From: Gonapodya sp. JEL0774
Lineage: Eukaryota
Length of the DNA stretch: 35,481 nucleotides
NCBI GenBank assembly: GCA_027604505.1
Contig: JADIIX010000185.1
Span: 1-35,481 of the forward strand
Direction: 5' to 3'
Made by a program: the position numbers and the translations under genes. Of the stretch, positions 4,064-35,315 are shown one piece after another (the first letter of the stretch is position 1; each line of letters starts with the position of its first letter). The notes under the pieces are model-generated. The model saw nothing but the letters and a program-made list of their open reading frames with translations, was not told the DNA's origin and ran no database searches.

Positions 4064-5399
4064 TCAAATCTTCCCTGCCCCATCTTCAACTTCTGTTCTA
4101 CCGCCAACAACATTCCCAACTTCGACAACTTGCTCAGTACCAGGGTATTCAGGCAGATTCAATTCGAGACGGTGGGCCATTGCGCTGATGGGCAAATTAC
4201 ACTGACTGTAAGCTCACAGATGCTCCTTTTTGGTTCCCACGAAATCTTACCCGGGAACAAATCGCCCACCCAACCAATGTTTTGAGCCTTTAAAATGTTG
4301 AGCACAGAGTTTGGGGGCGGTGAGAGAAATGAGAACCGATGGGTTTGAAATGTGAAGAGAAGAAGGTGTAGGGCCTATGATCCCGTAATTTAATGCATGA
4401 AGACGAAGACGCAAGCTGACGTGCAGGTACCCAGTTCAACGTCCCATCCCGAAGGGATGTCTATTGACACAATGGGAGTGCCTTGCGACGATGCGGCTAA
4501 GTTCAAAAGCTGTTGAGAAAAGCAACTTCGTTCTAGGTCGCGGTTAACATAATCGTATCTCACAAGTACAAACCTTTATTACGTCGTCCCACGGTGATCT
4601 CACACCGTCCGCGCCTTTGAACGAGAACCCGAATATTCCATCAAGAACCACATCCGTGGCATGATGAAGCGTGCCCGAAAAATCCTCCAGGGTGGAGATG
4701 AAGGGTAGATTCAAGTTAACAAGCTGCGTGGCGAGTCCCTACTTGGGTATGTTAGAGGTGGATTGGGCAAGGCGCATTGTGCGGTCCCAGGTAATCGAGC
4801 CCACCGTGAACAGTGCCGATTTTGCCGGCTTGGGGTAGTACACCACAGGCTTGTAACCAAAGTGCCAGAGATGGCGAGCTGCGACCAACGCGTCCCCACC
4901 ATTATTGCCTGAGAAACCACTTGCCGCGTTGGCAGAGTGAAAAAAGATCCGAGACGAAGTCGACGAGACTCACCGGGTCCAGCACACACCAGAACTCGTG
5001 AAAACTGAGCACTTGAGTATGATTTTGCTAGCGCCTGTGCGCATGACAGGCCCGCTTCGAAGTAGACAGGCACAACACAGAGACAGGGAGAACCCAATAC
5101 GATTCGGGAGTCCCAGAAATGGGCGCGATATAGTTTCAATGAGTGACAAAAATTAATTAGTGGTCTTGAATTCGCTGGATTGAATGGATCGCGGTTGCCC
5201 AACCAAGTTCCATCAACTGATCAATGGAGAAGCCACCCAATCGCGGATCCATGAGTTCCACATCAATAGCTTTCGCGAGATCCTGGCCAAGAAGCTGTTT
5301 CGTAGAACGTCATCGGATGATGGGCGACACGAAGACGAAAAAACCATCACGCAATCCACTGAAGAAGCAACGACAGACATCACTCACTCTGAGTGCCAT
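4064..5399 (-). CDS. NAXE: NAD(P)H-hydrate epimerase (YjeF_N family), 8 exons
   Basis: Spliced product [121 protein letters not shown] contains the hallmark motifs, with canonical splice sites. Confidence 0.96.
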
Positions 5400-5829: not shown

Positions 5830-8793
5830 ATGGTTCTTTCACGCTGGCTGGTGATTCTTGTGATCGCTGCCTTGCACTCCTTTGCTGCGGGCGATGAATC
5901 TGCGAAATGGCCATCGACAAAAAGCTGGTCGAAATCAGCACGATCCGTCGAGCGGAGAACCCCTCGCGACAACCGGCCATGCACCGTCAGCCAGTACAAA
6001 TCATTCCCACTCATTCCTGGAAAACCCATTCGATTCTTTCCTGTCTGCGACGAGGATGGTGAAGACGAACCGAACGAGTTTGAGGTGGACGAGATTGAAT
6101 CAGAACCCCGAACGAAAACAGTACCCAAGGGAACCAGAAAAACTCCAAGATCTCTTCCTACACATTTTGAAAAGCGACAGAGTGCGCCGTTTCTAATTTC
6201 GTTGTCTTGTGGATTGCAAGATGGACTGTTATGCTCTAAGGCTCAGGTCGGTTTTGTTAATGCTGGAATGCGGATTTCTCTCGCCATTAGCATCAACACA
6301 CAAAGTGAGTGGACATAATTTGTCTAATATAGTGAATGGTGAATGGCAACTGTTGAGTCTGTATCTTGATAGTTCGAGTAAATGCGCAATTCGTCCCCTT
6401 CTGTAAGGTTTACGGTCTTTGCAACACCAACATCCTGGGTGTCGGAGCCCCTGCTTCGCAGTGGGCAGTTGACACGGGAGACGGCATTTACTTAATTCCA
6501 CAATCACTTCTTTTAAACATGGGACTTGGTGGATCTGTTCCGACCAATTCATTCGACATCAATATGGTCTTCAACTCGGAATACACTTGGTGGTTCCAGG
6601 GCGATCCACCCATTGGCCCATCACAGGAGGATTTTGAGCAAGTAGCTACTCATGAACTTATCCACGGAATGGGCTTCATCACCGGGTGGCGGCAGTGGTT
6701 TACAGGTGGCTCTGCGAAAACTTTATGATGTGTTTCCGCCCGACCAAACAAGTCTTCCATTTGCTGTTCAGATACGCAAACCTACTTGACTCCAACTTAC
6801 TACTCGTGGAGCGATGGAACTTTCGCTTTTTGGGGCAATCAGTACATATTCGATGGGTTCTTATAGTAGGTTTTTGTCGGTTTCACTCGATGAACACGTT
6901 CTTAATCGCTTCTTCTGCGATCTTGTCTCTCAGTGAAGCGGCGACAGATCTCCCTCTCTCATCAAACTACGACCGTATCCTGAATGGTTTCACGTACAAC
7001 TCTTCTATCCCTGTTGCGAGCTTCGGCAATACTTTCGAGAGCAGTGGTGGTGACGCCATCGCTTCAGCGCGAAGTGTTTACGGAATGGCGAGCTCTGGTA
7101 ACAGGCGCCTTTACTTTCAACCAAAACAGAACCCCGTGGCCAATGATCCGATCTATCTATGGTCAGCAAGGTACGCAATGCCGCTCAACCTCCAAGACTA
7201 CCTTTCAACTCTCTATGATCACCATCATTTTAGCTGGTACTCAGGTGGATCCGCTATTTCTCATTTCGACGACGGATATGAATATACTCCCGATCTCCTT
7301 ATGATTTCGTATTCTCGCATGGGAGCGACACTGGACCAGAAGGTAGCAGGAGCGGGAGGGTTTGGTTATGGTGCCATTGGACCTCACGTTCTGTCTGGTG
7401 AGCTGGAAAGGCGAACAATACACACTCATATCGCAAGAGTTCACATTTGCTGTTGCTTCCAGTTTTAAATTCCATCGGATGGAACATCAACGCATTAGCT
7501 TCCCCTCTTGAAACAGCTACATCCACCTCCTCCGTTCAAGTCGACACCACGACACAAACCGCCACCACCACAAACACAGTCACAACTTCAATAACATCGA
7601 CAATACCGATCACCTCAACTTCTGTCACAACGTCCACAAAGTCGACAACATCGATCACCTCTTCCACAACCCGAACGACCAGTCGCACGACCACAACCAC
7701 GACGACGAGTCTTTCTACAACCACAATTGCAAGGACCACCACGTAAGTTGCCGGCACTGATTCCGGTCGGAAGGCCTTGTCAAACTCAGTAAATGGCGGT
7801 CAAATAATAGGTTGTTGAGTCCATGCAATGGTGGACTAACTTCCTGTGTCGATGGGTCCAGCTTTCCTGCCTCCATTTCACAAGGCGCTCAGATATTTGT
7901 CTTCCCCGTGCGGTTGTGGACGGCATCACCGATGGACGTGTTTGTGGAGCTTCACGAAGTAAGCTATTACTGCCCTGTTTCGGCCAAACCGTTGGCTGGA
8001 ACTTTTGCGTCTTCAGTCCACTTCTGGTGCTCTGGTATCAAACTACGCCTATAACCCAGCCTCTGGAGCATCGAGCTCAGGCTGGGCAGCGTACAACTTT
8101 ACGGTCACTCCCACTGTATCACTTACCAATAGTGCATATAACTGGTTTACGTGGATGACACCGCCTGGTGCGGGCTGGTCTGGCAATGTATTTACTCAAG
8201 TCGTCCGCGTCACAATTCATGCTCCCGTTACTTCCACTATCACCACGAGCTCTATTGGCGCAATTAGGTAAGCGCAACTTGTGTTGAGTTATCTCTCGTT
8301 CGTTCATTCCTCTGATCAGTCTCACATCTTCTGATAAACCGTCTAGAACAAGGTGGGTTACCGCAGAAACTTTGTGAGTATCCTGATTGTTTCCCGTAAA
8401 CTAATCATGTTTGGCTGGCACAACTTCGTGTTATGTGCTTGATAATAGTAGGTGAGCCCACAGCTGTAATGATAGTATTGTCTTGGAGACTGAGCGTTGA
8501 CTATTTCCGCAGTACTTCCACCAAATCCCGCACTGCAACGTGAGGCCGCGGCCGTTTTCTCGTTTTATCGCTTGTAACGACTGACCTCATATCCTCCTAC
8601 TCTACCAATGCGGAAGCGCTCCTGCCGCACCCAAGACGACGTGAGCAGACACATTGTTTCTTTCTACCCCAATGATCACAAATCCCTGACTCTTCACTGC
8701 CCCAGTACCACGAAGCTCCCTAAGGGAGCAAGATGCACGTCTTCTTCCATGTGCCAGAGCGGACAGTGTTCTTCACGTGGAACCTGCCTCTGA
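5830..8793 (+). CDS. Secreted zinc metalloprotease-like protein, paralog 2, with Thr-rich linker, beta-sandwich domain and C-terminal 4-Cys module
   Basis: Signal MVLSRWLVILVIAALHSFAAG, CTVSQY..RFFPVCDE, EKRQ, DFEQVATHELIHGMGFITGW (HEXXH 6651-6665), YSGGSAISHFDD..PDLLM. Thr-rich region about 7510-7742; ends LPKGARCTSSSMCQSGQCSSRGTCL*. Confidence 0.88.
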
Positions 8794-12467: not shown

Positions 12468-15400
12468 TTATGCGCAACGCAAACGCAAGCATCGTCCGCT
12501 TGAACACTGAGTTCCCTTGGAACATGCCTTGCCCCGTACGAGCAAGGGTGGAGTGGCGACAATTTGTTGTGTCGTCGACGTTCGAGTTGTGCTACGACGT
12601 ACGGCGATAGTTTGGGGGTTGATTTTCGTTGGCACCGCTCTCGTCTTTGCAACAACCGCAGCAGGGTTGATTGACGGGTCTATTGGATTTTGGACCCCAA
12701 TCAAATTTTGGGTATTTGTTGGTGTTGTTGCGCCACCCGCAGTTTGAATGGAACTACTCGGGGCGTTTCGAACATTGCTCAGACTGGAGTGTTGCCCTGC
12801 CAGGGCCGATGTCGTCTGACTTCGGACCGAACTCTCCATTTGCATGATGGTCCTCGAATTCGTAGTTCCTGGACTTTCAGTTCGAGCTGTAAGGGCGGCA
12901 ACCGTACTCGTCGACACGGAAGACGAGGCGGGCCCAATGTTCTTTGCTGTGAGAGTTATGACCGCGGTAGGAATTGTTTGAAGTTTCATTGAGCTGCTCG
13001 TGCTTTGTCGAATTCTGGCTTGAGTAATTGTACCATCACCCGCCAAAGTCACCAAGGTTGTGGTCCAACTGGACGTCGTGACAGTTTGCAATACTTGAGA
13101 TTCTTTGTTGCCGAAGCTAGTGAGCAATACTGTTCGAGTATCGGTCATTTGGATACAACTGAGCGCGAAACGCTTACTCGACTACTTGATTGAGATCAGC
13201 TTGCTTGAGCCCCCTGATAGTCGTTTTTGTTAGTGTAGTTGTGATGGCTCAACTCAAAACCACCACGGCAATCTTACATTGTTATAGTTGTCCTTCGAAG
13301 AGAAGAGCTATATCAGATAGGTATTCCATTTAGGAAACACGGCATTAAACTTACGTTGCGATCGGCAGTATGCCAGAACTTTGTGGGGTGGTGAACTCTG
13401 TTGGAGACAAACTCTGGGAATTCGAAGTAGTCATCGATAACGCCTGAGATGGGAATATCACCCATTCACTCGTTGTAGCTGACCACAATTCCGAGCTGGT
13501 TCTAGTTGCAGATACCGGTTTTGAATTCGTGAAGCTCTTCGATGACGTCAAGGAAGTGGCCACCGTAGCTGACGAAGTTTGAGAGCTGGTGGAAGTTGCC
13601 GACCATGTTTGAGAACTATTAGCTGTCGATGAGGACATGAAAAAAGTACTTTTTGTGGCAGACGAGGTCTGAGAGCTGGTGGTCGAGGTTTGGGAACGGG
13701 TGCCAGTCCTGGAGGACGTCCAAGAGCTGCTCCATGCAGCCGAGGAGGTCACAGAGTTCGTGGCAGTCCTCAAGGAAGTCCACGACGGGCTCGTCGTGGC
13801 CGACGAAGTCTCAGAGCTGGTAGAAGTTGCCGATGACGTCTGAGAACTGGTCAACGTCCTCGACATTGTAAACAAGGTGCTCTTTGAGGCGAACGGGGTC
13901 TGGGAGCTGCTGCTCCACGTTTGGAAATTGGAGCCAGTCCTCGAGGACGTCGAAGAAGTGCTCGTTGTGGCCGAGGAGGTCTCAGATCTGGAAGAAGTTG
14001 TCGAAGGCGTTTGGGAACTGGTGACCGTCCTGGACGTTGTCAAAGAAGTGCTTTTTGTGGCCGACGAGGTCTGAGAGCTGGTGATCGAGGTTTGGGAACT
14101 CCTGCCAGTCCTGGAGGAGGTCCAAGAGGTGCTCGTTGTACCCGAGGAGGTCTCAGATTTGGTCACAGTCCTGGAGGAAGTCCAGGTAGGACCTGTTGTA
14201 GCCGACGAGGTCTCCGAGCTGGAAGAAGTGGTCGACAGCGTTTGGGAACTGGTGACGGTCCTCGACGTACTAAACGAAGTGCTTTTTGTGGCGGACAAGG
14301 TCTGAGAACTCGTCGTCGAAGTTTGGGAACTGGTGCCAGTCCTGGAGGACGTCCAAGAGCTGTTCGTTGTAGCCGAGGAGGTCTCAGGGCTGGTGATAGT
14401 CCTCGAGGAAGTCCAAGATGGGCTCGACGTTGCCGACGAAACCTCAGAGCTGGTAGAAGTTGCCGATGACATTTGAGAACTGGTGAACGTCCTCGATGTA
14501 GCAACCGAACCGCTTTTTGTTGCCGACGAGGTTTGAGAGCCGGTGATCGAGGTTTGAAAACTCGTGCCAGTCCTAAAGGAGGTCCAAGAAGTGCTCGTTG
14601 TAGTCGACGACGCCTCAGGACTGGTCACAGTCCTACGGGAAGTCCAAGTAGGACTTGTTGCAGCCGACGAGGTCTTCGAGCTGGTAGCAGTGTTCGATGG
14701 CGTTTGGGAACTGGTGACCGTCCTGGACGTTGTCAAAGAAGTGCTTTTTGTGGCCGACGAGGTCTGAGAGCTGGTCGTCGAAGTTTGGGAACTCGTGCCA
14801 GTCCTGGAGGAGGTCCAAGAACTGCTCATTGTAGTCGAGGACGCCTCAGGACTGGTCACAGTCCTGGAGGAAGTCCAGGTAGGACTTGTTGCAGCCGACG
14901 AGGTCTTCGAGCTGGTAGCAGTGGTCGATGGCGTTTGGGAACTGGTGACCGTCCTGGACGTTGTCAAAGAAGTGCTTTTTATGGCCGACGAGGTCTGAGA
15001 GCTGGTAGTCTGAGTTTGGGAACTGGTGCCACTCCACGATGACGTCCAAGAAGTGCTCGTTGTACCCGAGGAGGTCTCAGAACTAGTCACAGTCCTGGAG
15101 GAAGTCCAAGTAGGACTCGTTGTAGCAGACGAAGTTTCCGAGCTGGTAGCAGTGGTCGATGGCGTTTGGGAACTGGTGACCATCCTGGACGTTGTCAAAG
15201 AAGCGAGCTTTGTGGCCGACGAGGTCTGAGAGCTGGTCGTCGAAGTTTGGGAACTCGTGCCAGTCCTGGAGGAGGTCCAAGAAGTGCTCGTTGTACCCGA
15301 GGAGGTCTCAGAACTAGTCACAGTCCTGGAGGAAGTCCAAGTAGGACTCTTTGTAGCCGACGAAGTCTCCGACCTGGAAGAAGTTGTCGAAGGCGTTTGG

Positions 15401-18400
15401 GAACTGGTGACCGTCCTGGACGTTGTCAAAGAAGTGTTTTTTGGGGCCGACGAGGTCTGAGAGCTGGTGATCGAGGTTTGGGAACTCGTGCCAGTCCTGG
15501 AGGAGGTCCAAGAGGTGCTCGTTGTACCCGAGGAGGTCTCAGAGCTAGTCACAGTCCTGGAGGAAGTCCAAGTAGGGTTCGTTGTAGCCGACAAAGTCCT
15601 CGAGCTGGAAGGAGTTGTCGATGGTGTTTGGGAACTGGTAATAGTTGTCGAGGAAGCAAAAGAACTCCTTTTGGCCGACGAGGTCTGAGAGCTGGTTGTC
15701 GAAGTTTGAGAACTGGTGCCAGTTTTCGAGGACGTCCAAGAGCTGCTCGTTGTAGCCGAGGAGGTCTCAGAGCTGGTGACAGCCCTCGATGAAGTCCAAG
15801 ATGGGCTCATCACGGCCAACGAAGTCTCAGAGCTGGTAGAAGTTGCCGATGACGTTTGAGAACTGGTGAACGTTCTCGATGTAGCAAATGAACTACTTTT
15901 TGTGCCCGAAGAGGTCTGAGAGCTGCTGGAAGACGTTTGAGAATTGATTACGATCCAAGAGGAGGTCATCGTCTGGCCCGTTGACGCGGAAGAAGTCTGA
16001 GAGCTCAATGAAATTGCCGAAGACGGTTGAGAGGAACTACTGACAATTCTTGAAGTAGTAAAAGTACTACTCTTTGAAGTTGACGGGGTCTGATAGATGT
16101 TGGTCGACGTTTGGGATCTGGTGAATGTCGAAGTCAAAGCGGGGCTCGTTGTTGCAAACGAAGTCTGAGAGCTCATAGGAGTCCTTGAGGGAGTCAAGGA
16201 CGCACTCGTTGTTGCTGAGGAGGTCGCAGGGATGGTGGTACTTGCCGTTTGGGGACTGATGCCGGTGCTCGAGTCAGTTGAAAAGGTAATCTCTGCAACC
16301 GACGAAGTCTGAGATGTCGTTGTGGCTTCGAACGCGCCCTGAAACCTTGTGGAAGTAGTCAAGAGTGTCTGGAGGGCAGTCCCGTCACCCGTAAACGTTC
16401 CCCATGCCTCAACGCTCCACGTTAACATTTCGGACGTGAACTTGTTCTCAGAAGAAATTCGCGGGGAAGCAACAGGCGGAGCACTTGTAGTGTCCACGAA
16501 ATTTGGTGCAGTTGTAATGGTAATTGACGACATTTGTGAGGAGGTAGCATCCATTCTAAATCATATTGTAGTCAGGGTTTGCGCATATAAGATAGTCTCA
16601 TAGCAACTCACGTCAGCGAAATCCAAGTAGTCGGGAGAGCTTCTGCAGTCGATTGAGTCCTTAGTTAACCAGTAGACAAAGTTAGAACCACACCGTGAAG
16701 TGGTGCAACCGAGAAAATCTCACGATGTCATTCCCGACAAGGATTCCGAAGAGGAGGTGGTAAAACTGATAGTTGAAAACGAATTAAAAACTCCAAGAAT
16801 GAAATTCCTTGTAAACAACTGTCACTTACTTGATGTCTGGTGAGGTTGCATTGAGGGCGGAGGCAAATGGTGGGGTTGAGCTCGCAACCACCCGCAGATT
16901 GTTGACAGTCCACCCAAGAGAGCTCATCACTGCAGCATGACAGCATGCGACCGTAGTTGGTGGCTTTGAAATGTCACAATATTCAACAAGAAACTCTTAC
17001 CGCCGAGTAGATGTGGGCCCATCGCCCCGTAAGCGTATGATCCAGCTGCCATTACTTTCGAATCCAGAGTGGACCCCGCCCTGGCGAAAGATATCATGAG
17101 AAAATCGGGGGTGTTCTCAAGTCCGTCGTCGAGATGAGAGAAGGTCGTTCCTCCCGAATAGTATCGCCCACTCCAGATAGGGAGGGCATCCGCGACAGCA
17201 GAACTCATTGCGGGTTTAATTCGGACGTAATCTGGGCCTGACGTCGCTAACTGGTACACCTTCTGGGCTGCCGCGAAAGACCCTCCGCTAGCTCTTTGGA
17301 ATCGCAACAGAAAAGCCCCTATAGACGATCCTGAAACCCCTTGGTAGTTCGTTATTTGGTCATAATAATTCGAGATCAGGGTGCTAGTCGATGTTTCACT
17401 GAATCAGGAAGTGCAGATTCTCGATTAAGCTGGTTCACTCCTTCGAAAGAAGATCCACTGCTTACATCATAAGTTTGTCGTATATGTACTGAGGAGCCCA
17501 GAACGCCCAACTGCCATTCGCCCAGGTATAATACGGTGGTGTCAGGAAAGTCTGGCCCGGTACGTCTATCGTGCTTTGGTCAATCACTCTAGAGCCACCC
17601 GGACAAGGGGAGAACAACTCACAATTGCTGAACCACTGGTTCCATCCAGTCATAAAACCCATTCCATGCACAAATTCATGCATGACAACTCCTTCAAAGT
17701 CCTCTTGTTCGGGGGTGATGGGCTGGTCTCCCGTGAACCACCACGCAAAATCGGCATTGAATAATGCTGTGATGTCGGTGTCGCTGTAGTTGGGCCCGTC
17801 TCCGTAGACGTTTTTAAGAAGAGCCTACAGAAATCGCAATTTGGGCGAATCTGCTCGATCGCACCCCTCGGTTCTGACCCCGACTTACCTGGGGAAGCAT
17901 GTAAACTCCATCCTCTGTATCTACCGACCAAAGCGCCGCAGGACTCGCTTGGCCCAGTATGCTCGATCCGCAAAAACTCGTATCAATGGATTCGCAGTAA
18001 GAGACGAACTTAGCTGATACCTTGACTGTTTTCAGAAAGTCAGGTGTGGAACGCACCACGAAACGCGGAGCCGAAGACTCACTTTCCAGAGTAATACTGA
18101 TAGCCACTGCTATGCGACGGGCCGCATTTAAAAATCCCGTCTGAACCTTGTCACACAAGGCCGAATCGTTGACCCTGCAATCCAGTGAAATGCTGAACGG
18201 GGACCCTCCATCGCGACCCGCCAATCGGGTTCTGCGCTGGTTTGAGATTCCAGTTCCCACTTTCCACTTTCTCGATGGGTCCTCTAGATCTGAAGAGTTT
18301 GCAAATGGAGTCTCCGATAGGCTGGACCCAGAGGATTCGTCGCAGACCGGAAAGAACCGGGGTCTTTTCTTAGGCTGGATGGAAGCGGGTAACGCATCGA

Positions 18401-18741: not shown

Positions 18742-19581
18742 TTATGTTGAAACTCTCTCTATCTGCGCGAGTGCGCTGGTTATCAAACCCCTCGCCTCAT
18801 CATCCAATTCCGACTGCGCCAACAAATACCTGAGTCCATCGACCCAGTAACTCCATCGCTCTAGATTATATCCAGTCCAGTTTTTATTGGACAGTGTGCT
18901 CCCCTCCATAGCACTTCGCCCTGCGTATTGTCTGCTTTTGTTGCAATTCTCAAACAGTGCGGGGCTTGAATAAATGAACCAAAGAACGCAGCCACAAATG
19001 GCACGAGAAGGGACTTCTCTCAAAATTTGGTTTCGCGGGTGGTCCTCGAGCACGTCTCGCATTGCCCAGATGCCGTACAAGGACATGTCCAGAACATCCT
19101 CACTGGTAAGACGGGCAACAAATGCGTTTAGCTCACAAAGCTCTTCATTGGCTTTTACGAGTGGGAATACAGTTGATAACAGTGACAGAAAACACGCCGC
19201 GTAAGCCAAACGGGAGATTCAAAGTACCACGAGAAACTCACGCCGGTTCCACGATTCTCGAAAAGCTGGTCCTAAAAGTGGCAGATCCAGCCATGTAACC
19301 TGCGATTCCCAAACCGTCATGATCGGACTCTCCTTGGTGTGTTTTAGCTCTCGCAGAAGGTCAACGAGCTTGTTCTGCTCCCCATGTGGGACACGCATGA
19401 CGACACTGATGAGCGAATTCCAAGTTTCCCAAAGAAAATTTTCGCCTCCCCCTCTGATGGCGAACGCGATTCGGCCTTGTCGGACGATTTCGCCCGCAGC
19501 GGCCGACGGTGATTTCCGACCGCGAGTCACTGCAAGAAAGAGATTCTCGGCGTGCGGATCACTTGTTGGGTGGGGAGTCAT
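18742..19581 (-). CDS. DUF3632-family fungal protein (2 exons)
   Basis: FLWETWNSLI, QNKLVDLLRELK, WLDLPLLGPAFRESWN, LNAFVARLT, LYGIWAMRDVLE and WTGYNLERWSYW resemble DUF3632 motifs as recalled. One intron starts gtgagt near 19241. Confidence 0.8.
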
Positions 19582-19753
19582 TTTTGTGTGGGCACCAGAT
19601 GTTGATGATTGCTGCTGGATGGTCAAAACTAACAGTTGGCTGCTTTTGTGAAGTGGAGTGAATCCAGAGCTGATCAGGATGGGGTGCAGGCCGCAGCCCG
19701 CCAAGATCGGAACACGACCTCATCTGTCCCGTTTGATTTGATTGCTTACAGAC

Positions 19754-25001: not shown

Positions 25002-26166
25002 ATGCCCCTCATGTCGCTGATGGACCGACTGCCAACTGACGAACGTGCACTTTTTAATGGTAGCGTGAAAGGGTTCTACTATGTGGGGATCGCCGTATTC
25101 CTCGTATTGCAATTTTTGCAAGCTCCCTTTGGTGAGTGGTGGAAGCGATCTCCCATCCGTGAACGGTCCGATTCACTCGTTCGTCTCCTGATAATCTTGA
25201 AATTGCGCGATCGTCCTGTGTCCAGGTCGATTCGTCCACAACGACACACTCAAATCGTTGTGGGGACCCCGATTGAACGGCCGGATTGCGTGGGCGATCC
25301 AGGAAACCGTGCCCCTCGTCGTGTTTCCTCTTATCGCATTGCGGCCGGCGACAGTGGCGGATGCCGTTGGGAAGCTGGTGTGTCACAGGAGACTCGAGTT
25401 TGCAATTTTGGCCGTTTTCAATTTATACGGACGGACACTTAAAACAGCGCACGGTCTCGCCCCTCCTGAATCCCGTCACCATGGTTCTGTCGCTCATGTA
25501 TTGGGGCCATTACATCCACCGGGGGATCATCTTTCCCTTGAACTCACCTGGTTCGAGTCCCAGCAACCTCTTTGTGATGTCCTCGGCCGCTTTTCACAAT
25601 GTTGTGATGGGTGCGTTGATTTTGAAGAATGTTTTCGCATGTCACTCTCGATTGTATATGACCGATTCGTGTGCTTTGTTCGCGACTTAAATCCGTCGAT
25701 CTCCACAGCGTACATCCAGGCGCGAGGAATCACCATCTTTGGGGACACCATTTACGCCAACCCCCGCGCTTTCTTCGATCCCAGAACCAACCCTACCTTC
25801 TTCCTTGGTCTCTTTCTCTACATAGTGGGCATCGTTAGCAACATCACATCTGACTATCACCTCTTTCACCTCCGGCGCAACCCCCCGCCGGGCCAAACTG
25901 TCACTACTGCTTCTGGATCGAAGTACTCCATTCCAACCGCGGGCCTACACCGATACCTGGCCGCACCTGGCTATGTAACGGAGATTCTGCAGTGGACCGG
26001 TTACGCTATCGCGACAGGGGGACACGCTTGGGGTTGGTCCTTCCCCTTCTTTACGGCAATGAACTTGGTGCCGAGGGCGGTGGCCACAGACAAGTGGTAT
26101 AAAGACACGTTTGGTGCTCGGTATGAGAAGATGGGGAAATGGAAGTTGCTTCCGTTTGTATATTGA
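25002..26166 (+). CDS. 3-oxo-5-alpha-steroid 4-dehydrogenase (SRD5A/DET2 family)
   Basis: APFG|RF, LNGRIAWAIQE, HYIHRGIIFP, NITSDYHLFHLR, YSIPTAGLHRYLAAPGYVTEILQWTGYAIA and NLVPRAVATDKWYKDTF. Confidence 0.92.
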
Positions 26167-26625
26167 ATGTGTTCGAACACACTCCTCATTCTGCATTTGT
26201 TGCGTTGTACGTACTCCAACGATTTTGAACATCGGATCATATGTACCGATTGCGTAAGACTTTAATACCATGTATGAGGGCAGATCTGTCTTCCGTGTAC
26301 CAACTTATTATACATACTGATCCATTTTACTTATTGCATCAGATTCCGTTACTGCCGAAGGATTTAACGCGCCATACCCGCAAATCCAAAATTTCAATCC
26401 GATTCTCTTCAATACGCCGATTTTATGACCGCATCGTTAACTTCTCACTCGGCTTCCTCGGGTAGCAGCAACCGTTCATCCTCTATCTCCACGGTTGTTC
26501 CCAACCGACCACCTTTTCAAGAGATGTTGCACTCCGAGGTTCAGGTGAATTCTTCGAGTCGGACATTTCAGTGTTTTTCTGGCTATACGGTGCTTCTACT
26601 TAGAAATTGATCGACCTGGATGTTC

Positions 26626-28602
26626 ATGGTTTCGATGTATCCCACCATGTTTCAACCAACCCGTCCAAGTAGTTCCCGTTTATTCAAACCACCAAGTCCT
26701 CTACAAACGGCAACGTTAATGGAAACGGTGTTTCGCATTCTGTCGCTCACACCACAGCGGTGACCCCAGGAAAAGCGAGCATAGAAGACACGTCGGTGTT
26801 GCCACAGGTTGCCCGGTTCCAAACGTACCTGCGTATCAACACCGCACAGCCTAAACCTGACTATGATTCGGCTACTGCATGGTTCAAGACCCAGGCTGAG
26901 GAAATTGGACTCGATTTCCGAACTTACGATGTGAGTTTCATTGAAGCGCTCTTCCGCGCCTATCCCTGCACACATTCAACATTCTGCACCTGAATATTCA
27001 CCAGTGCGTTCCGGGCAAGACCTTCTCCATCCTCACTTTTCACGGCACCGATCCCACACTCCCGACCCTCTTCCTTAACTCCCACATTGACGTGGTTCCG
27101 GTAGACGAACAGTACTGGACTGTACCCCCCTTTGCCGCAGTGCGAAGACCCAACGGTGACATTGTGGCTCGTGGTGCTCAAGATATGAAAGTTGTTGGTG
27201 TGCAGTAAGTATGCTACCTAAACTCTTGCAGCAGTGTGCATCTCCCTGCGACTGAATTCTCGATGGCTGCTGTCTCGGTATCTCACGACCTCTCCCCCCC
27301 AGATACCTCGAATCAATCCGAATTCTCAAATCCCGGGGATGGGTGCCTCGTCGCACCATCCACGTTTGTTTCACACCTGACGAAGAAATCGGGGGCGTGG
27401 AAGGGATGGGCCCCTTTGTCAAGTCCGAATTCTTCAAACAACTCAACGTGGGCTTCGGGCTAGATGAGGGAATTTCAAACCCAGGGGATGTGATCACGGT
27501 GTTTTATGCCGAGAGGACTGGATGGTCAGTTTTCAGTCGGAGAATGACTGTTGTTCCACCTTGAACTAACGGTATCGATATCGTGCGTCTCTGTCTCGGG
27601 TCAGCCATACTCTCATCTCGACACACGGTAACACCGGCCATGGCTCGCAATTCATTTCCGACTCTGGCACGGAAAAGCTACTCCGCATTATCGCCAAGTT
27701 CAACGAGTTCAGGGCCCAGGAGGAGACCCGATTAAAGGTTGGTACTTTCAACGCCTCTTGTTTCAGTATTGCACAACACCTGCCATCAGCCAAAATCAGT
27801 AACGCCGTGACCTTTCGGGAAGACATCCGCCCATCCGGATGGCTCCCCTCTAGCGCTTGGCGACGTTACCACTCCCAACCTTGTTCTCCTCAAATGCGGT
27901 AACGCCCCCAATATTGTTCCCGGTGATGTGAGTTCGTCACTTCTGCACTCTACCATGATTGTCTTGTGGTAAATGAACCCCACACCTTCTCCATCTCGCT
28001 CCACACGTCCAGGCCCAAGCCCTCTACGATATCCGCGTCTCTCCTCGGACCGACTATTACGCCTTCCGCGCTCAACTAGAGTCCTGGGCCGCCTCCGAAC
28101 CCGGAGTGCATCTTACCTTCTACGGCCAACCTACCGTAGCCCCTCTTCCCGACCTCGACGCTCCCCCGTACGATGTTTACTGGCGCGTTTTGCAAGACGT
28201 AGCCGGAAAGAGGGGAGTGGCGCTAGAGCCGCGGATATTCCCCGCCGGGAGCGACGCGAGGTTTGTGAGACAGGTGGGGATTCCCGCACTGGGTGTGTCT
28301 TATTTGAAGAACACGCCAGTGCTGTTGCATGATCATGACGAATATGTGAATGAGAAGGTGCGTGGTGTTGATTGGTTCAGATTCGTTAGTGATCGCCTCA
28401 TGCCATTTTTTGTTTCCCCCGCCACTTCATCGTATCCCCTTAACGCGCTGTGCTGACCATCTGCTCACATTTGTACGCTCTGCTTACATTGTCCGATCCA
28501 TGCGCTATCGCACTCTCGTACCTTTCCTCGTACCACACTCAGTTGTTCCTCGAGGGTATTGACTTCTATGTTGATCTCTTGCCACGTCTCGTGGAGATAT
28601 AA
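26626..28602 (+). CDS. ACY1: Aminoacylase-1 (peptidase M20A family), multi-exon
   Basis: RFQTYLRINTAQPKPDY, LNSHIDVVPV, ARGAQDMK, FTPDEEIGG, LDEGISNP, GNTGHGSQF, IFPAGSDARFVR, LLHDHDEYVNE. The start is inferred as ATG|intron 26629-26696. Confidence 0.95.
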
Positions 28603-31379: not shown

Positions 31380-34300
31380 CTAAATGTGGCCGGAAATGGG
31401 CTTCGGCGCATAACTCTCCTCCAAGTACTTGACTAGAATCGTATGCGTAAGAAGTGTGATGAGACGAAATCTCAACAGATACACGGAGCCAAAGCCAGAC
31501 AAGGTGGCTCCCAAAAAAAGTACTCACTGTCAGCCCCACTCAGTTTCAAATCGATCGCCCCCACCAAATCGTCAATATACTTGGTCTTGGACACTCCAAC
31601 GATAGGCGACGTAACGAATGGTTTAGAATACCTGAAGTGTCACCACACGGAAATACATCAAACGCCGAGCCACCAAATAGACGGAAAAAATGCAAATGGA
31701 ACGAGGACATCAATAAACATCATATAGTATGCCTTTACGAACAGACAACGCCCGGACAGAACACAGAACACTCACACCCATGCCAACGCCACCTGAGACG
31801 GAGTCGCCTTGATTCTCCCCGCAACTTCGATGCACCGGTCCACAATCTGGTCTTCAAAGGTCTTTGTCGGTGCAGGGGCAGGATCAACGTGAGATGAAAA
31901 CGGTACGGGTTTCGACATCAAGTCTATTCATAGATGTCCGTTTCGGCAAATGAACGGCCTGCCGGTCGGTATGGACACCTACCTTGGCCATCCTTCTGAT
32001 CATGGGGTCAGTACCTTGGCGCACAGAGTTGCGGTTCTTGCCCGTAAGCATCCCGCGAGCTAGTGGGGACCAAGGAATCCTAACGGGTGAACAGGAATTC
32101 GTGGGTGATATCGAGTGCCGGGTACAATGGTGCGGGGTGAGGCAAGATGTGATCAAAGGGAGAGTTAGTGCACGCTACGGTGCGGAGTACCCGAGCAACT
32201 AGGTCTCTGTGCATTCCCAACTCTGTCAAGGAGGGTTTAGAGGATGACGCACATGCCAACTCCTTGGTCTTGAAGGAGCTGTGTGGACCCAATGCGGTTG
32301 TCACAGATTCAATGTTGAAAGTCACCGGTGAGCACCAGTTAGTTCGTGCTGGCAATGAGTGTCTTTGGTCTCGAGGGATAACGCACCGGGATCATTTCAC
32401 GTTCTCTGAAAGTAGAAACAAGGGCGGTGGGTTGAGTGCGGTTGGAGAGTGGGAGGTTTCATTGATGCGGAAGATGGGGAGAAGGTGAGGTTTGGACAAA
32501 CATCAGTCAAATCACAAGCTGCCAACCCTCGAAATTGACTCACTCCTCTCTACCATCGTTGCAAGCAACCGCACGTTACGGCAGGGAGGCACAAGGAACG
32601 ACGCGTATTGAGTGCGAAATTGAGGGTGAAGAATGGTATTTAATGCAAGTGTAATGCAATGGATCTTAAAAAGCACTGACCGGTACACTAAGTTTGAATC
32701 ACGATTCGAGTTGAAGATGACAAGAGAATTTTTGTTGTGTTACGTCAGGAGTGATTGTCATTCATCAGATGAGATGGAGGGTCCGATTGGTCAGAATACT
32801 CACACTACACATTTGGTTCATACAAATGCGGCGACATCGTGAGAGTGTTCGAAAACATGGAACAAGGGCGGGAGAAATTTCACAGACAGCAGTCATGGGT
32901 CGGGAGGACGGGGGTTTCAAAAACAGGCAAAACAGACACACGCCACTCATGAAAAGCAACACCCTAGCCGGTGACTGGTAGCATTTGGGGATCACGAAAC
33001 TCACCCTGAAAGTTGGTGGGGTCATGGGTAGGAATAGAAAACAAGTGAGGTGTTATGACAATCGTGTGCAAATAGCAGAGGCGGCAACCGAGAGCTGAAA
33101 TTCTCAGATCACCTGAAACTCACACTGAAAGGTTCCGAAGTCATTGCAATGTCGTGTTTTTAATATGTTGAGAGTACCAATTAGTGACCAACGATATCAG
33201 GTAGTAATGATAAAATAATGGGGTTTGGAGGCCCAGACCGATTACCATACACAACGATGATGATGTACTTTCTGACGATATAGTACTCACGCTGTTATTT
33301 GTGTGAACAGAGGTGAGAGCATGTTGTAGGTCACCGAAAAAGGTTGCGAAATTGGTGGCATGAGTATGTGAATTGGAGCAGTGAACACCGTTGTCGCTAC
33401 TACCACATGTTCTCACGTTATAGAAGTTTTGCTGCAAGCGAGCCCATGTCAGAGGAGGTGAAAACCAGAGATTTAAGGTCATCAGGTTCAAGTTTCCATA
33501 GAACTTAGTTCACTGGGACCCACCATGGACACAAATGGAGTCCATCCGTTCAGCTTGGCGGTGTACTGGGCCTTGGAAAATTGCCAAGCGTACATCGAGG
33601 AGGCACCAAGGTATCGGACTTTGCCGGCCTACGTGTTCCGTAAATTGCATTAAACGGTTTCGGGTGAACCCAAAGTGAGACCAATGTGTAAATTTGAGAG
33701 AGAGAGTAAGGCAAGGGTAAACCATAGTGGGAGAATGAATGAAAAAACGTACCCGCACGAGGTCGTCCAACGCACGCATAGTTTCGTCGATGGGAGTTTG
33801 TGAGTCATACCTAAAAGTACACGTATGAAAAACAAAACAGAGCAGAAAGTTAGGTCGAACGCATTTCATGCCACACCAAAAAGTTACGCAAAATCCTTGT
33901 CATCCCGATTGATCCCGAGAGTTTATTTTCATGTCCCCACTCACAGGGTTGCCACTCACCTATGAATCTGGTACAGGTCGATATAGTCCGTGCCGAGACG
34001 CTTGAGGGAGCCTTCGACTTCCTTTTTGCGTGTTCGTTTGGTTGTTGGCGGTGAGAAGCACCGTTAATCCAGAACCATTCAAAGGAAGAATGTCAAATGT
34101 GAACACGCACTTGCATGATACACTGGTGAAGGCAAGTCATAAAAAAGTGAAATGCGATTGCGACCTTAAGGATTTATCAGTAACTCAATCACACCTTTCG
34201 GGAAAGTCCGCCCCTGTTGATGTCAACCACGCCAGGCCTGGCAGAACTGCTAAGGCTACGATATCCAATATCTGGCGGTTCGGAGTTGATAGTTGGAGAG

Positions 34301-35315
34301 AAGGATGATGCACTTTGTTAGATCTTTGCGTCAGGCATCACAACTACCTTCAGGGTATGTGGAGGAGAAGACCTTGGCGCAACGATATTCAATAATCACA
34401 TCAACATCAACGACACAAACAGATTTATGATGGGGGGTTTCCAGTTGCAGAGCGTACCTTGGTCGCGATAACAACTCGATCGCGAGGGATGCTGTACTTC
34501 TTCAGCGCGTTACCCGTGATGGTCTCCGACACGCCGTTAGAGTACACATTTGCAGTGTCCCCTGAGGATTCGGAGATTGTACATCAGAAGATGGAATAAC
34601 GGAGGTATGCGCGGTGAGTTGTGTATGTGGATAGACAGCCGCGCCATTCTCATCCTGCAGAGTATGAGCCACACGTACAAAAATTGATTCCACTGTCCCA
34701 CTGCATTTTGAGGAAGAATCGTAATTCAATGTTCGAGTCTCTGAGTAACGCCAATCGCAGAGAAGAAACACTCACAGCGTACTTGATAACCGGAAGAGCT
34801 TCTTCTTCCTCTATAACCCTTTTACAAGAAGTACCGAGGGTAAACCCCAAGATTTCCTTTCCGTGAAACGCTAGAATTCAACAAACCACTCAGCCCAGCG
34901 CTTGTCTGATTGTGAAATATTAAGTATTGAGACTTCGTCGTTCATAACTTGGCCATCGAGTACATACCTCCATAAGACATCATGCCCAGACATAATCTTC
35001 AGAGAGTGGGGGGCATTCTGATTCTGAATATGTCACAAGGATAGCTTCCAACCAATCGATTACCTTGAAACCTTTGGTGGAAGCAAAACGGATTTGGTCG
35101 CCGGTCAACACTGCATCACCGATCGACTGTGAATTGCCTCACGCAGCTCACCTGAAGGCCGGTTTTGCCCAGTCTCACGCTTCGTGATTCGTTGGGGAGA
35201 CGGGATCGGAAGTTGTTCCAGCCGACAAGACATGGAATAGTCGGCCTCCAGACGTTGGGGTCATCACTCACTATTTCATTTTGGCGAGATTTTCGGCAGC
35301 AGAGAGTTCGGCCAT
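31380..35315 (-). CDS. Aldo-keto reductase (aryl-alcohol dehydrogenase-like), 27 exons including four 1-nt exons
   Basis: Spliced product [146 protein letters not shown]. The catalytic D/Y/K/H residues are present and all introns are GT-AG. Confidence 0.95.

What the first reader, a model, noticed from the sequence alone, without database searches (positions are those of the whole stretch)
32387..33431. Four consecutive single-nucleotide exons build a conserved AKR motif
Seen on the minus strand: exon 33431-33417 (CAA AAC TTC TAT AAC), then aacag|C|gtgagt (33291), ttcag|T|gtgagt (33124), ttcag|G|gtgagt (33005), tgtag|T|gtgagt (32804), ttag|TGTACCG|gtcagt (32687-32681), gtag|AGAGGA|gtgagt (32549-32544) and tcag|AGAACGTGAAATGATCCCG|gtgcgt (32405-32387). 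Joined they read CTG TTG TAC CGA GAG GAA GAA CGT GAA ATG ATC CCG = LLYREEEREMIP, the motif expected after QNxYN in this AKR subfamily. One Leu codon is therefore split over three exons, and 36 coding nt are spread over about 1.1 kb. Omitting all four 1-nt exons shifts the frame to a TGA within 9 codons. Isolated 1-nt exons have been reported, but I know of no run of four. Inference: strictly ordered, recursive-like splicing, since adjacent splice sites one base apart cannot be occupied at once. Standard annotation would miss it.
Basis: partly seen in the sequence, partly recalled or inferred. Interest (0 to 1): 0.96.

Follow-up and report, generated by a model that had tools for sequence, protein, structure and literature searches.

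The report
Four one-base exons in a row
In an enzyme gene of the water fungus Gonapodya, four single bases (C, T, G, T), each between its own pair of introns, spell two conserved leucine codons when joined, so the gene likely has four consecutive one-base exons; RNA from this species has not yet been checked.

Summary
All eight exons are at the stated coordinates. The locus is an aldo-keto reductase gene of Gonapodya sp. JEL0774, modelled with 27 exons and 350 aa. In 729 nt, the four best of 54 possible donors are all GTGAGT, each one base after a YAG; 0 of 20,000 shuffles gave even two such sites. Joined, the bases give Leu-Leu at the family's fixed spacing (226 of 226 matched homologues) and 17 of 17 identity to an intron-less orthologue contig. 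A single 4-nt exon tied in one crude alignment, but needs a GAG acceptor, over-long introns and Trp or Phe; a trained model puts it 35-49 bits lower. The public model of the syntenic G. prolifera orthologue skips the same block. No RNA of this species was seen. Most likely five ordinary introns are removed one at a time by intron definition; strict order or true recursive splicing is not shown. Single one-base exons are published; nine searches found no run. This scan earlier noted a run of two in another fungus. New variant of a known kind.

The parts
31380..35315 (-). Aldo-keto reductase gene, modelled as 27 exons, 26 GT-AG introns, 1,053 coding nt with stop, 350 aa
   Evidence: Spliced alignment to P0009 and to P0005 gave the same model; 281 identities to the 344-aa P0009; P0009 and P0002 match Pfam PF00248
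33524..33628 (-). 105-nt exon upstream of the block, ending at the Met where both public Gonapodya models go wrong
33417..33431 (-). 15-nt exon (Gln213 to Asn217); CAG acceptor, GTGAGA donor
33291..33291 (-). 1-nt exon C, first base of the Leu218 codon; CAG acceptor, GTGAGT donor
33124..33124 (-). 1-nt exon T, second base of Leu218; CAG acceptor, GTGAGT donor
33005..33005 (-). 1-nt exon G, third base of Leu218; CAG acceptor, GTGAGT donor; flanks resemble those of 33124
32804..32804 (-). 1-nt exon T, first base of Leu219; TAG acceptor, GTGAGT donor
32681..32687 (-). 7-nt exon (end of Leu219, Tyr, start of Arg); TAG acceptor, GTCAGT donor
   Evidence: chosen in every run
32544..32549 (-). 6-nt exon; TAG acceptor, GTGAGT donor
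   Evidence: chosen in every run
32387..32405 (-). 19-nt exon closing the block; CAG acceptor, GTGCGT donor
   Evidence: chosen in every run
33292..33416 (-). Intron 15, 125 nt
33125..33290 (-). Intron 16, 166 nt
33006..33123 (-). Intron 17, 118 nt
32805..33004 (-). Intron 18, 200 nt; holds the weaker decoy sites at 32999, 32963 and 32945
32688..32803 (-). Intron 19, 116 nt
34111..34122 (-). 12-nt exon (four residues) elsewhere in the gene; the G. prolifera public model lacks exactly these four residues

Best explanation
Four single bases at 33291, 33124, 33005 and 32804, each with an AG before it and a GTGAGT after it, spell Leu-Leu when joined and are likely four consecutive constitutive one-base exons of a working aldo-keto reductase gene, whose five flanking introns are predicted to be removed one at a time. 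Shown: the sites, their order, the reading frame, the match to the family. Inferred: each 116-200-nt intron is recognised as a unit (intron definition), so exon size hardly matters; neighbouring introns cannot be spliced at the same moment, so one goes first while the unspliced neighbour stands in as flanking 'exon'; no fixed order is required by the sequence; skipping any one, two or all four bases shifts the frame to a stop at codon 225-227, so selection (and probably nonsense-mediated decay, from general knowledge) keeps the full set; skipping three leaves a protein one residue short at a position of fixed length in the family. Inferred origin: introns gained locally in this Gonapodya orthologue, possibly one by copying a neighbouring splice junction.
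For: Four best of 54 GT sites in the 729 nt are these donors, scored with a matrix trained on the 21 introns outside the block. 0 of 20,000 shuffles with two or more sites. Spacing fixed in 116 of 116 matched homologues (of 120, picked by the upstream exon alone) with Leu first in all 116, and in 226 of 226 matched (of 235), first residue Leu 222, Val 3, Ala 1. Of 21 possible chains of 4 nt, 6 give Leu first and all 6 use at least two one-base exons; only 2 of 21 avoid one-base exons. Trained log-odds: this chain is best in 4 of 4 settings, 35-49 bits above the best single-exon chain and 25-27 bits above any one base alone on signals and lengths. Intron-less orthologue contig L001 is identical at 17 of 17 residues of the block and shares the CTG codon. 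Gene under purifying selection against L001: pN 0.13, pS 0.73 over 344 codons. The syntenic G. prolifera orthologue's public model lacks 12 residues starting exactly at intron 14, and the four residues of the 12-nt exon.
Against: No RNA reads or cDNA of this species were seen, and no genomic DNA of any orthologue, so neither inclusion nor conservation of the four sites is shown. L001 is from another organism and shows only what an intact orthologue encodes. A hand-weighted spliced alignment is not decisive: the one-base chain only tied with a single 4-nt exon for 8 of 9 homologues (it was returned for 1) and lost to another parse for the ninth, and without splice weights a single 4-nt exon won for 9 of 9. 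The homologues are not independent (many Streptomyces and Anaerolineae). The log-odds model is trained on only 21 introns and leaves out the prior of a one-base exon; a tie would need each one-base exon to be about 450 to 5,000 times rarer than the fourth root of the prior of a 4-nt exon. The third base could also come from 32963 (10-11 bits worse, same mRNA). All four donors being GTGAGT (4 of 4 against 6 of 22, p 0.014) may simply reflect that donors without an exon-side G tend to be GTGAGT in this gene (5 of 9 others, read).
Confidence: 0.88

Rival explanations
1. One ordinary 4-nt microexon (TGGC at 32945-32942, giving Trp-Leu, or TTTC at 32999-32996, giving Phe-Leu) fills the gap and the four YAG-N-GTGAGT sites are unused.
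For: Keeps frame and length; needs three fewer introns; tied or won in the crude alignments.
Against: Both need a GAG acceptor (0 of 26 modelled introns here), flanking introns of about 250-470 nt (21 others are 62-173 nt) and Trp or Phe where 0 of 226 homologues have it; 35-57 bits below the four-base chain; leaves four perfect sites unexplained.
Confidence: 0.03
2. The four sites are real but alternative: any one base is included, giving in-frame proteins one residue short (Asn-Leu-Tyr from three of them, Asn-Val-Tyr from one).
For: Each single inclusion gives an open 349-aa frame and would explain why all four sites look functional.
Against: 0 of 226 matched homologues are a residue short here; in genomic order the four bases spell the family's Leu-Leu, which random bases would do about 5-7% of the time (codon arithmetic); each single inclusion needs one or two introns of 280-610 nt; three of four products would be identical.
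Confidence: 0.04
3. The sites are steps inside one long intervening sequence (ratchet points or nested twin introns) whose single bases are partly removed, for example G at 33005 plus T at 32804 rebuilding a GT donor as in a [D1,2] stwintron; or the gene no longer makes a full protein.
For: Removing intron 18 first does create AG-GT-GTGAGT, and GTGTGA is used as a donor by intron 10. Stwintrons of this geometry are documented in ascomycetes (PMC12403724, passages).
Against: That reading keeps only two bases and stops at codon 225. The other 22 exons show no stop or frameshift and the gene is under purifying selection (pN 0.13, pS 0.73). The block's own codons differ from L001 almost only at silent sites.
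Confidence: 0.04

Closest known systems
Constitutive single-nucleotide exon of Arabidopsis APC11 (Guo and Liu 2015, PMC4674806; parts 1-2 of 3 of the text read) and plant VPS55 (Yu et al. 2022, PMC8831610; 12 of 19 passages read)
   Same: One base between AG and GT, needed for the frame, missed by annotation; intron definition with one-after-another removal proposed.
   Different: Those are single exons with reporter or RT-PCR proof; here there are four in a row followed by 7- and 6-nt exons, one codon comes from three exons, and RNA proof is missing.
One-nucleotide exon of Fusarium CYP621A (Nelson and Syed 2026, PMC12940212; parts 1-2 of 3 read)
   Same: Fungal; lies inside a conserved motif of fixed length; inferred from an intron-less relative; public models wrong at the site.
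   Different: Single G exon, conserved in 20 orthologues and backed by 18 reads; here four exons of three different bases, conservation only indirect.
One-base exons of Coprinopsis cinerea (PMC12230235; passages read)
   Same: Shows that intron-rich fungi splice 1-3-nt exons: 13 one-base exons by long reads.
   Different: The 13 lie in 13 different genes, so none has two; the supplement was not opened.
Recursive splicing at zero-nucleotide ratchet points (PMC8605326 and bioRxiv 10.1101/006163; search listing only)
   Same: Acceptor and donor almost abutting; stepwise removal of a long intervening stretch.
   Different: Ratchet points leave no base, sit in very long introns and create the next donor by the first splice; here a base is kept each time, introns are 116-200 nt and donors pre-exist.
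[D1,2] stwintrons of Hypoxylaceae and Xylariaceae (PMC12403724; passages read)
   Same: Two U2 introns one base apart, removed consecutively by intron definition.
   Different: There the single G is part of the outer intron's donor and is removed; here removal of the bases breaks the frame.

Membership tests
Constitutive single-nucleotide exon | One base flanked by a canonical acceptor and donor, with full-size introns on both sides | tested here: met
   4 of 4 sites YAG-N-GTGAGT, introns 116-200 nt
Constitutive single-nucleotide exon | The base is needed for frame and conserved residues | tested here: met
   Of 16 subsets only all-four (350 aa) and any-one (349 aa) stay open; only all-four matches the fixed family length
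Constitutive single-nucleotide exon | The base is present in the species' own mRNA | not testable with these tools
   No reads of this species could be obtained; L001 is an orthologue from another organism
Constitutive single-nucleotide exon | Sites conserved in orthologous genomic DNA | tested here: inconclusive
   Only the protein model of the G. prolifera orthologue was available; its gaps match this gene's exon borders at 3 of 4 edges
Recursive splicing (ratchet points) | Acceptor directly followed by donor, no base retained | tested here: not met
   One base lies between AG and GT at all four sites and is needed
Recursive splicing (ratchet points) | Obligate order shown by splicing intermediates or lariats | not testable with these tools
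   Needs nascent-RNA or lariat sequencing
[D1,2] stwintron | Inner intron splits G and T of an outer donor; both bases end up removed and the mRNA is in frame | tested here: not met
   Geometry exists at 33005/32804 but the product stops at codon 225
Aldo-keto reductase (Pfam PF00248) | Full-length domain match | tested here: met
   Orthologues P0009 (E 2.5e-77) and P0002 (E 9.6e-67) match; the spliced model has 281 identities to P0009
Aldo-keto reductase (Pfam PF00248) | Asp-Tyr-Lys-His catalytic tetrad | tested here: met
   D66, Y71, K99, H157 in the model; their role is recalled knowledge, and activity and substrate were not tested

The most novel reading that the evidence does not exclude
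A spliceosome builds a conserved codon one nucleotide at a time: four one-base exons, shared by at least two Gonapodya species, are added in a fixed ratchet order, and the cluster arose by local copying of a splice-junction unit (the flanks of 33124 and 33005 are still alike), a route of intron gain that piles new introns one base apart inside a motif that cannot change length.
Probability: 0.25. Interest if true: 0.88.

Novelty: new variant of a known kind. Interest (0 to 1): 0.74.

Why it matters
Published one-base spliceosomal exons that I found are isolated. Four in a row, with 17 coding bases in six consecutive exons, would be a natural limit case where exon definition is impossible and five neighbouring introns each block the next. 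One RT-PCR of partly spliced RNA would show whether order is fixed or free and how often bases are skipped, which is the open question raised for APC11. It also bears on intron gain (26 introns in 1,053 nt, against about 5 per kb in a neighbouring gene) and on annotation: both public Gonapodya models lose a conserved stretch here, so intron counts for the genus reported as the most intron-dense of 263 fungi (PMC8476143) are probably too low.

Tried and rejected
No whole genome is held for this window, so no genome-wide scan for YAG-N-GTRAGT was possible. No sequencing reads of this species were examined. The metagenome scan returned 80 loci; only L001 was close (100% to its own query) and the other 79 were 48-59% identical, so no intron-bearing orthologue was found; that scan covered 29 of 64 parts of the collection. 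A hand-weighted spliced alignment picked the four bases but tied or lost, so I do not rest on it. A branch-point scan was uninformative: loose motifs occur in 5 of 5 block introns and 16 of 21 others, at scattered distances. Introns flanking the one-base exons are somewhat longer than the rest (p 0.04), but introns lengthen towards the 3' half of the gene anyway. Whole-intron duplication was not supported: introns 16 and 17 are not among the 8 best of 325 intron pairs by local alignment; only the junction flanks are alike. A paralogue as source of confusion was rejected: the one other model from this isolate among the hits (P0089) differs in the block. Literature searches for runs of one-base exons, or microexons in this group, found none; the library lacks most subscription journals, and supplements of PMC12230235 and PMC8831610, not opened, may list adjacent very short exons.

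Full report
Observation. The introns between them are 125, 166, 118, 200, 116, 131 and 138 nt.

Source and gene. A search with the upstream exon returned, as best hit, a public 265-aa partial model named Gonapodya sp. JEL0774 on a contig of 35,481 nt, the length of this window. That model skips the whole block. A spliced alignment of the minus strand to either of two homologues, allowing exons of any size, gave one model: 27 exons, 26 GT-AG introns, 350 aa, 281 identities to the 344-aa P0009. P0009 and P0002 match Pfam PF00248 over its length. The model keeps D66, Y71, K99 and H157, which I recall as the family's catalytic tetrad. The gene has 24.7 introns per coding kb, against about 5 in the neighbouring aminoacylase gene (6-7 introns, one of them doubtful) and 4.5 reported for G. 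prolifera, the highest of 263 fungi (PMC8476143, passages).

More than chance. In the 729 nt between the 15-nt and 7-nt exons there are 54 GT dinucleotides. Scored with a matrix trained on the 21 introns outside the block, the four best are the four GTGAGT, and each follows YAG plus one base. In 20,000 dinucleotide shuffles 19,934 had no such site, 66 had one, none had more; with a looser pattern 8 had two and none more. Elsewhere in the window 2 of the other 33 GTGAGT follow YAG-N.

The family fixes the answer. Of 120 proteins found with the upstream exon alone, 116 matched a pattern across the block, all with the same spacing and all with Leu at the first of the two positions; the four misses are the two Gonapodya models, one frameshifted and one truncated protein. 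Of 235 proteins, 226 matched a looser pattern, all with the same spacing; first residue Leu 222, Val 3, Ala 1; second Leu, Val or Ile in 220. Five of the nine misses carry the motif at normal length by eye. These proteins are related to one another and are not independent samples. Exactly four bases are therefore needed. All 21 chains of GT/GC-AG exons totalling four bases were listed: six give Leu first and all six use at least two one-base exons; only two avoid one-base exons, and these give Trp-Leu or Phe-Leu from GAG acceptors.

Result against my reading. The hand-weighted alignment that chose the four bases did not do so cleanly when repeated on the block with GC donors allowed. For 8 of 9 homologues the score with one-base exons allowed equalled the score with them forbidden and both parses gave the full-length block (the four-base chain was returned for 1, the single TGGC exon for 7); for the ninth another parse won; and with no splice weights the single TTTC exon won for 9 of 9. 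That method depends on an arbitrary intron cost. I therefore scored all chains by log-odds from trained donor and acceptor matrices, an intron-length distribution (fitted, or deliberately heavy-tailed) and down-weighted family frequencies. The four-base chain was best in 4 of 4 settings, 35-49 bits above TGGC and 42-57 above TTTC; the runners-up, 10-11 bits lower, were also chains of four one-base exons using the G at 32963. On signals and lengths alone it is 25-27 bits above any single base and 33 above no exon. The model is trained on 21 introns and omits the prior of a one-base exon.

Orthologues. L001 is a 1,171-nt contig that encodes P0009 without introns, as a transcript would. It groups with the window model and G. 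prolifera P0002 (98/94). Across the block it is identical at 17 of 17 residues, shares the CTG codon and differs almost only silently; over 344 codons pN is 0.13 and pS 0.73, so the gene is under purifying selection. P0002 is the syntenic orthologue: it and the aminoacylase lie three accession numbers apart on a 625,054-nt scaffold, as their counterparts lie two apart here. Its public model lacks 12 residues starting exactly at intron 14 and resuming inside the 19-nt exon, and lacks the four residues of the 12-nt exon. Public models of three paralogues (P0121, P0181, P0089) keep the motif intact, which suggests, without showing, that the cluster was gained in this orthologue line. No RNA of this species was seen.

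Mechanism. Shown: sites, order, frame and family match. Inferred: each intron is a normal short unit recognised by intron definition, as argued for APC11 (PMC4674806) and stated for ascomycetes (PMC12403724). Neighbouring introns must then be removed one after another, the unspliced neighbour serving as flanking sequence. Nothing forces a fixed order, because each donor is complete before any splice; in plants the intron downstream of a microexon more often goes first (PMC8831610). Of the 16 subsets of the four bases, 11 stop at codon 225-227, four give a protein one residue short and one gives the full protein. All four donors are GTGAGT (4 of 4 against 6 of 22, p 0.014), but so are 5 of the 9 other donors that lack a G at the exon end, so this need not be special. 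One trap exists: joining G and T first creates AG-GT-GTGAGT, a stwintron-like decoy whose use would be unproductive.

Origin. The flanks of 33124 and 33005 are alike over 30 nt at 77%. Their acceptor contexts are the most similar of 325 intron pairs (13 of 22 bases, mean 5.9), and the junction alignment score was reached by 0.18% of 5,000 random pairings that all carried GTGAGT donors; it is the best of six pairs tested, so about 1% after correction. The intron bodies do not align. This hints at copying of a splice junction and is no more than a hint.

Comparison and novelty. Single one-base exons are published for Arabidopsis APC11, plant VPS55, Fusarium CYP621A, and 13 in 13 different Coprinopsis genes; organellar cases involve group I or II introns. 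A 2026 review gives 3-15 nt as the typical microexon size (passages). Nine searches showed no run of one-base exons; the library is incomplete and supplements were not opened. Unchecked notes of this scan describe a run of two one-base exons in another fungus and a 3-2-2 run in another eukaryote; none covers this gene or genome. The block fails the tests for ratchet points and stwintrons and meets those for constitutive one-base exons that could be run.

Verdict. Observation confirmed. Four consecutive constitutive one-base exons, confidence 0.88; strict ordering unproven. New variant of a known kind, interest 0.74.

Noticed in passing
window 35315-31380 (-): The whole gene is extreme: 26 introns in 1,053 coding nt, 9 exons of 15 nt or less; 7 of 26 acceptors are AAG and none GAG.
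   Followed up: partly
window 33123-33107 (-): An AG directly followed by GT lies 11 bases into intron 17 (33113/33112), inside the stretch that resembles the flank of 33005; its donor scores weakly. Possible relic or decoy.
   Followed up: partly
window 25201-28602 (+): A steroid-reductase-like gene (PF02544) and an aminoacylase gene (PF01546) are fused in one 731-aa public model, P0236, named adenylate cyclase; the name does not fit its domains.
   Followed up: partly
window about 5400-4060 (-): A multi-intron gene that by eye resembles NAD(P)HX epimerase (name recalled, not tested by a tool); its 12-nt first exon ends at 5388 and explains one background YAG-N-GTGAGT match.
   Followed up: no
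window 8260-8730 (+): A run of short exon candidates with strong donors, including a 7-nt one at 8367-8373 and a 0- or 3-nt one near 8449-8452; gene not identified.
   Followed up: no
window 10647 (+): Another CAG-A-GTGAGT site; could be an ordinary exon end or a further one-base exon.
   Followed up: no
window 13351-16560 (-): A 1,069-codon uninterrupted frame with no Pfam match at E 0.01, unusual among these intron-rich genes.
   Followed up: no
window 18745-19719 (-): Two frames match the two halves of DUF3632 (PF12311).
   Followed up: no
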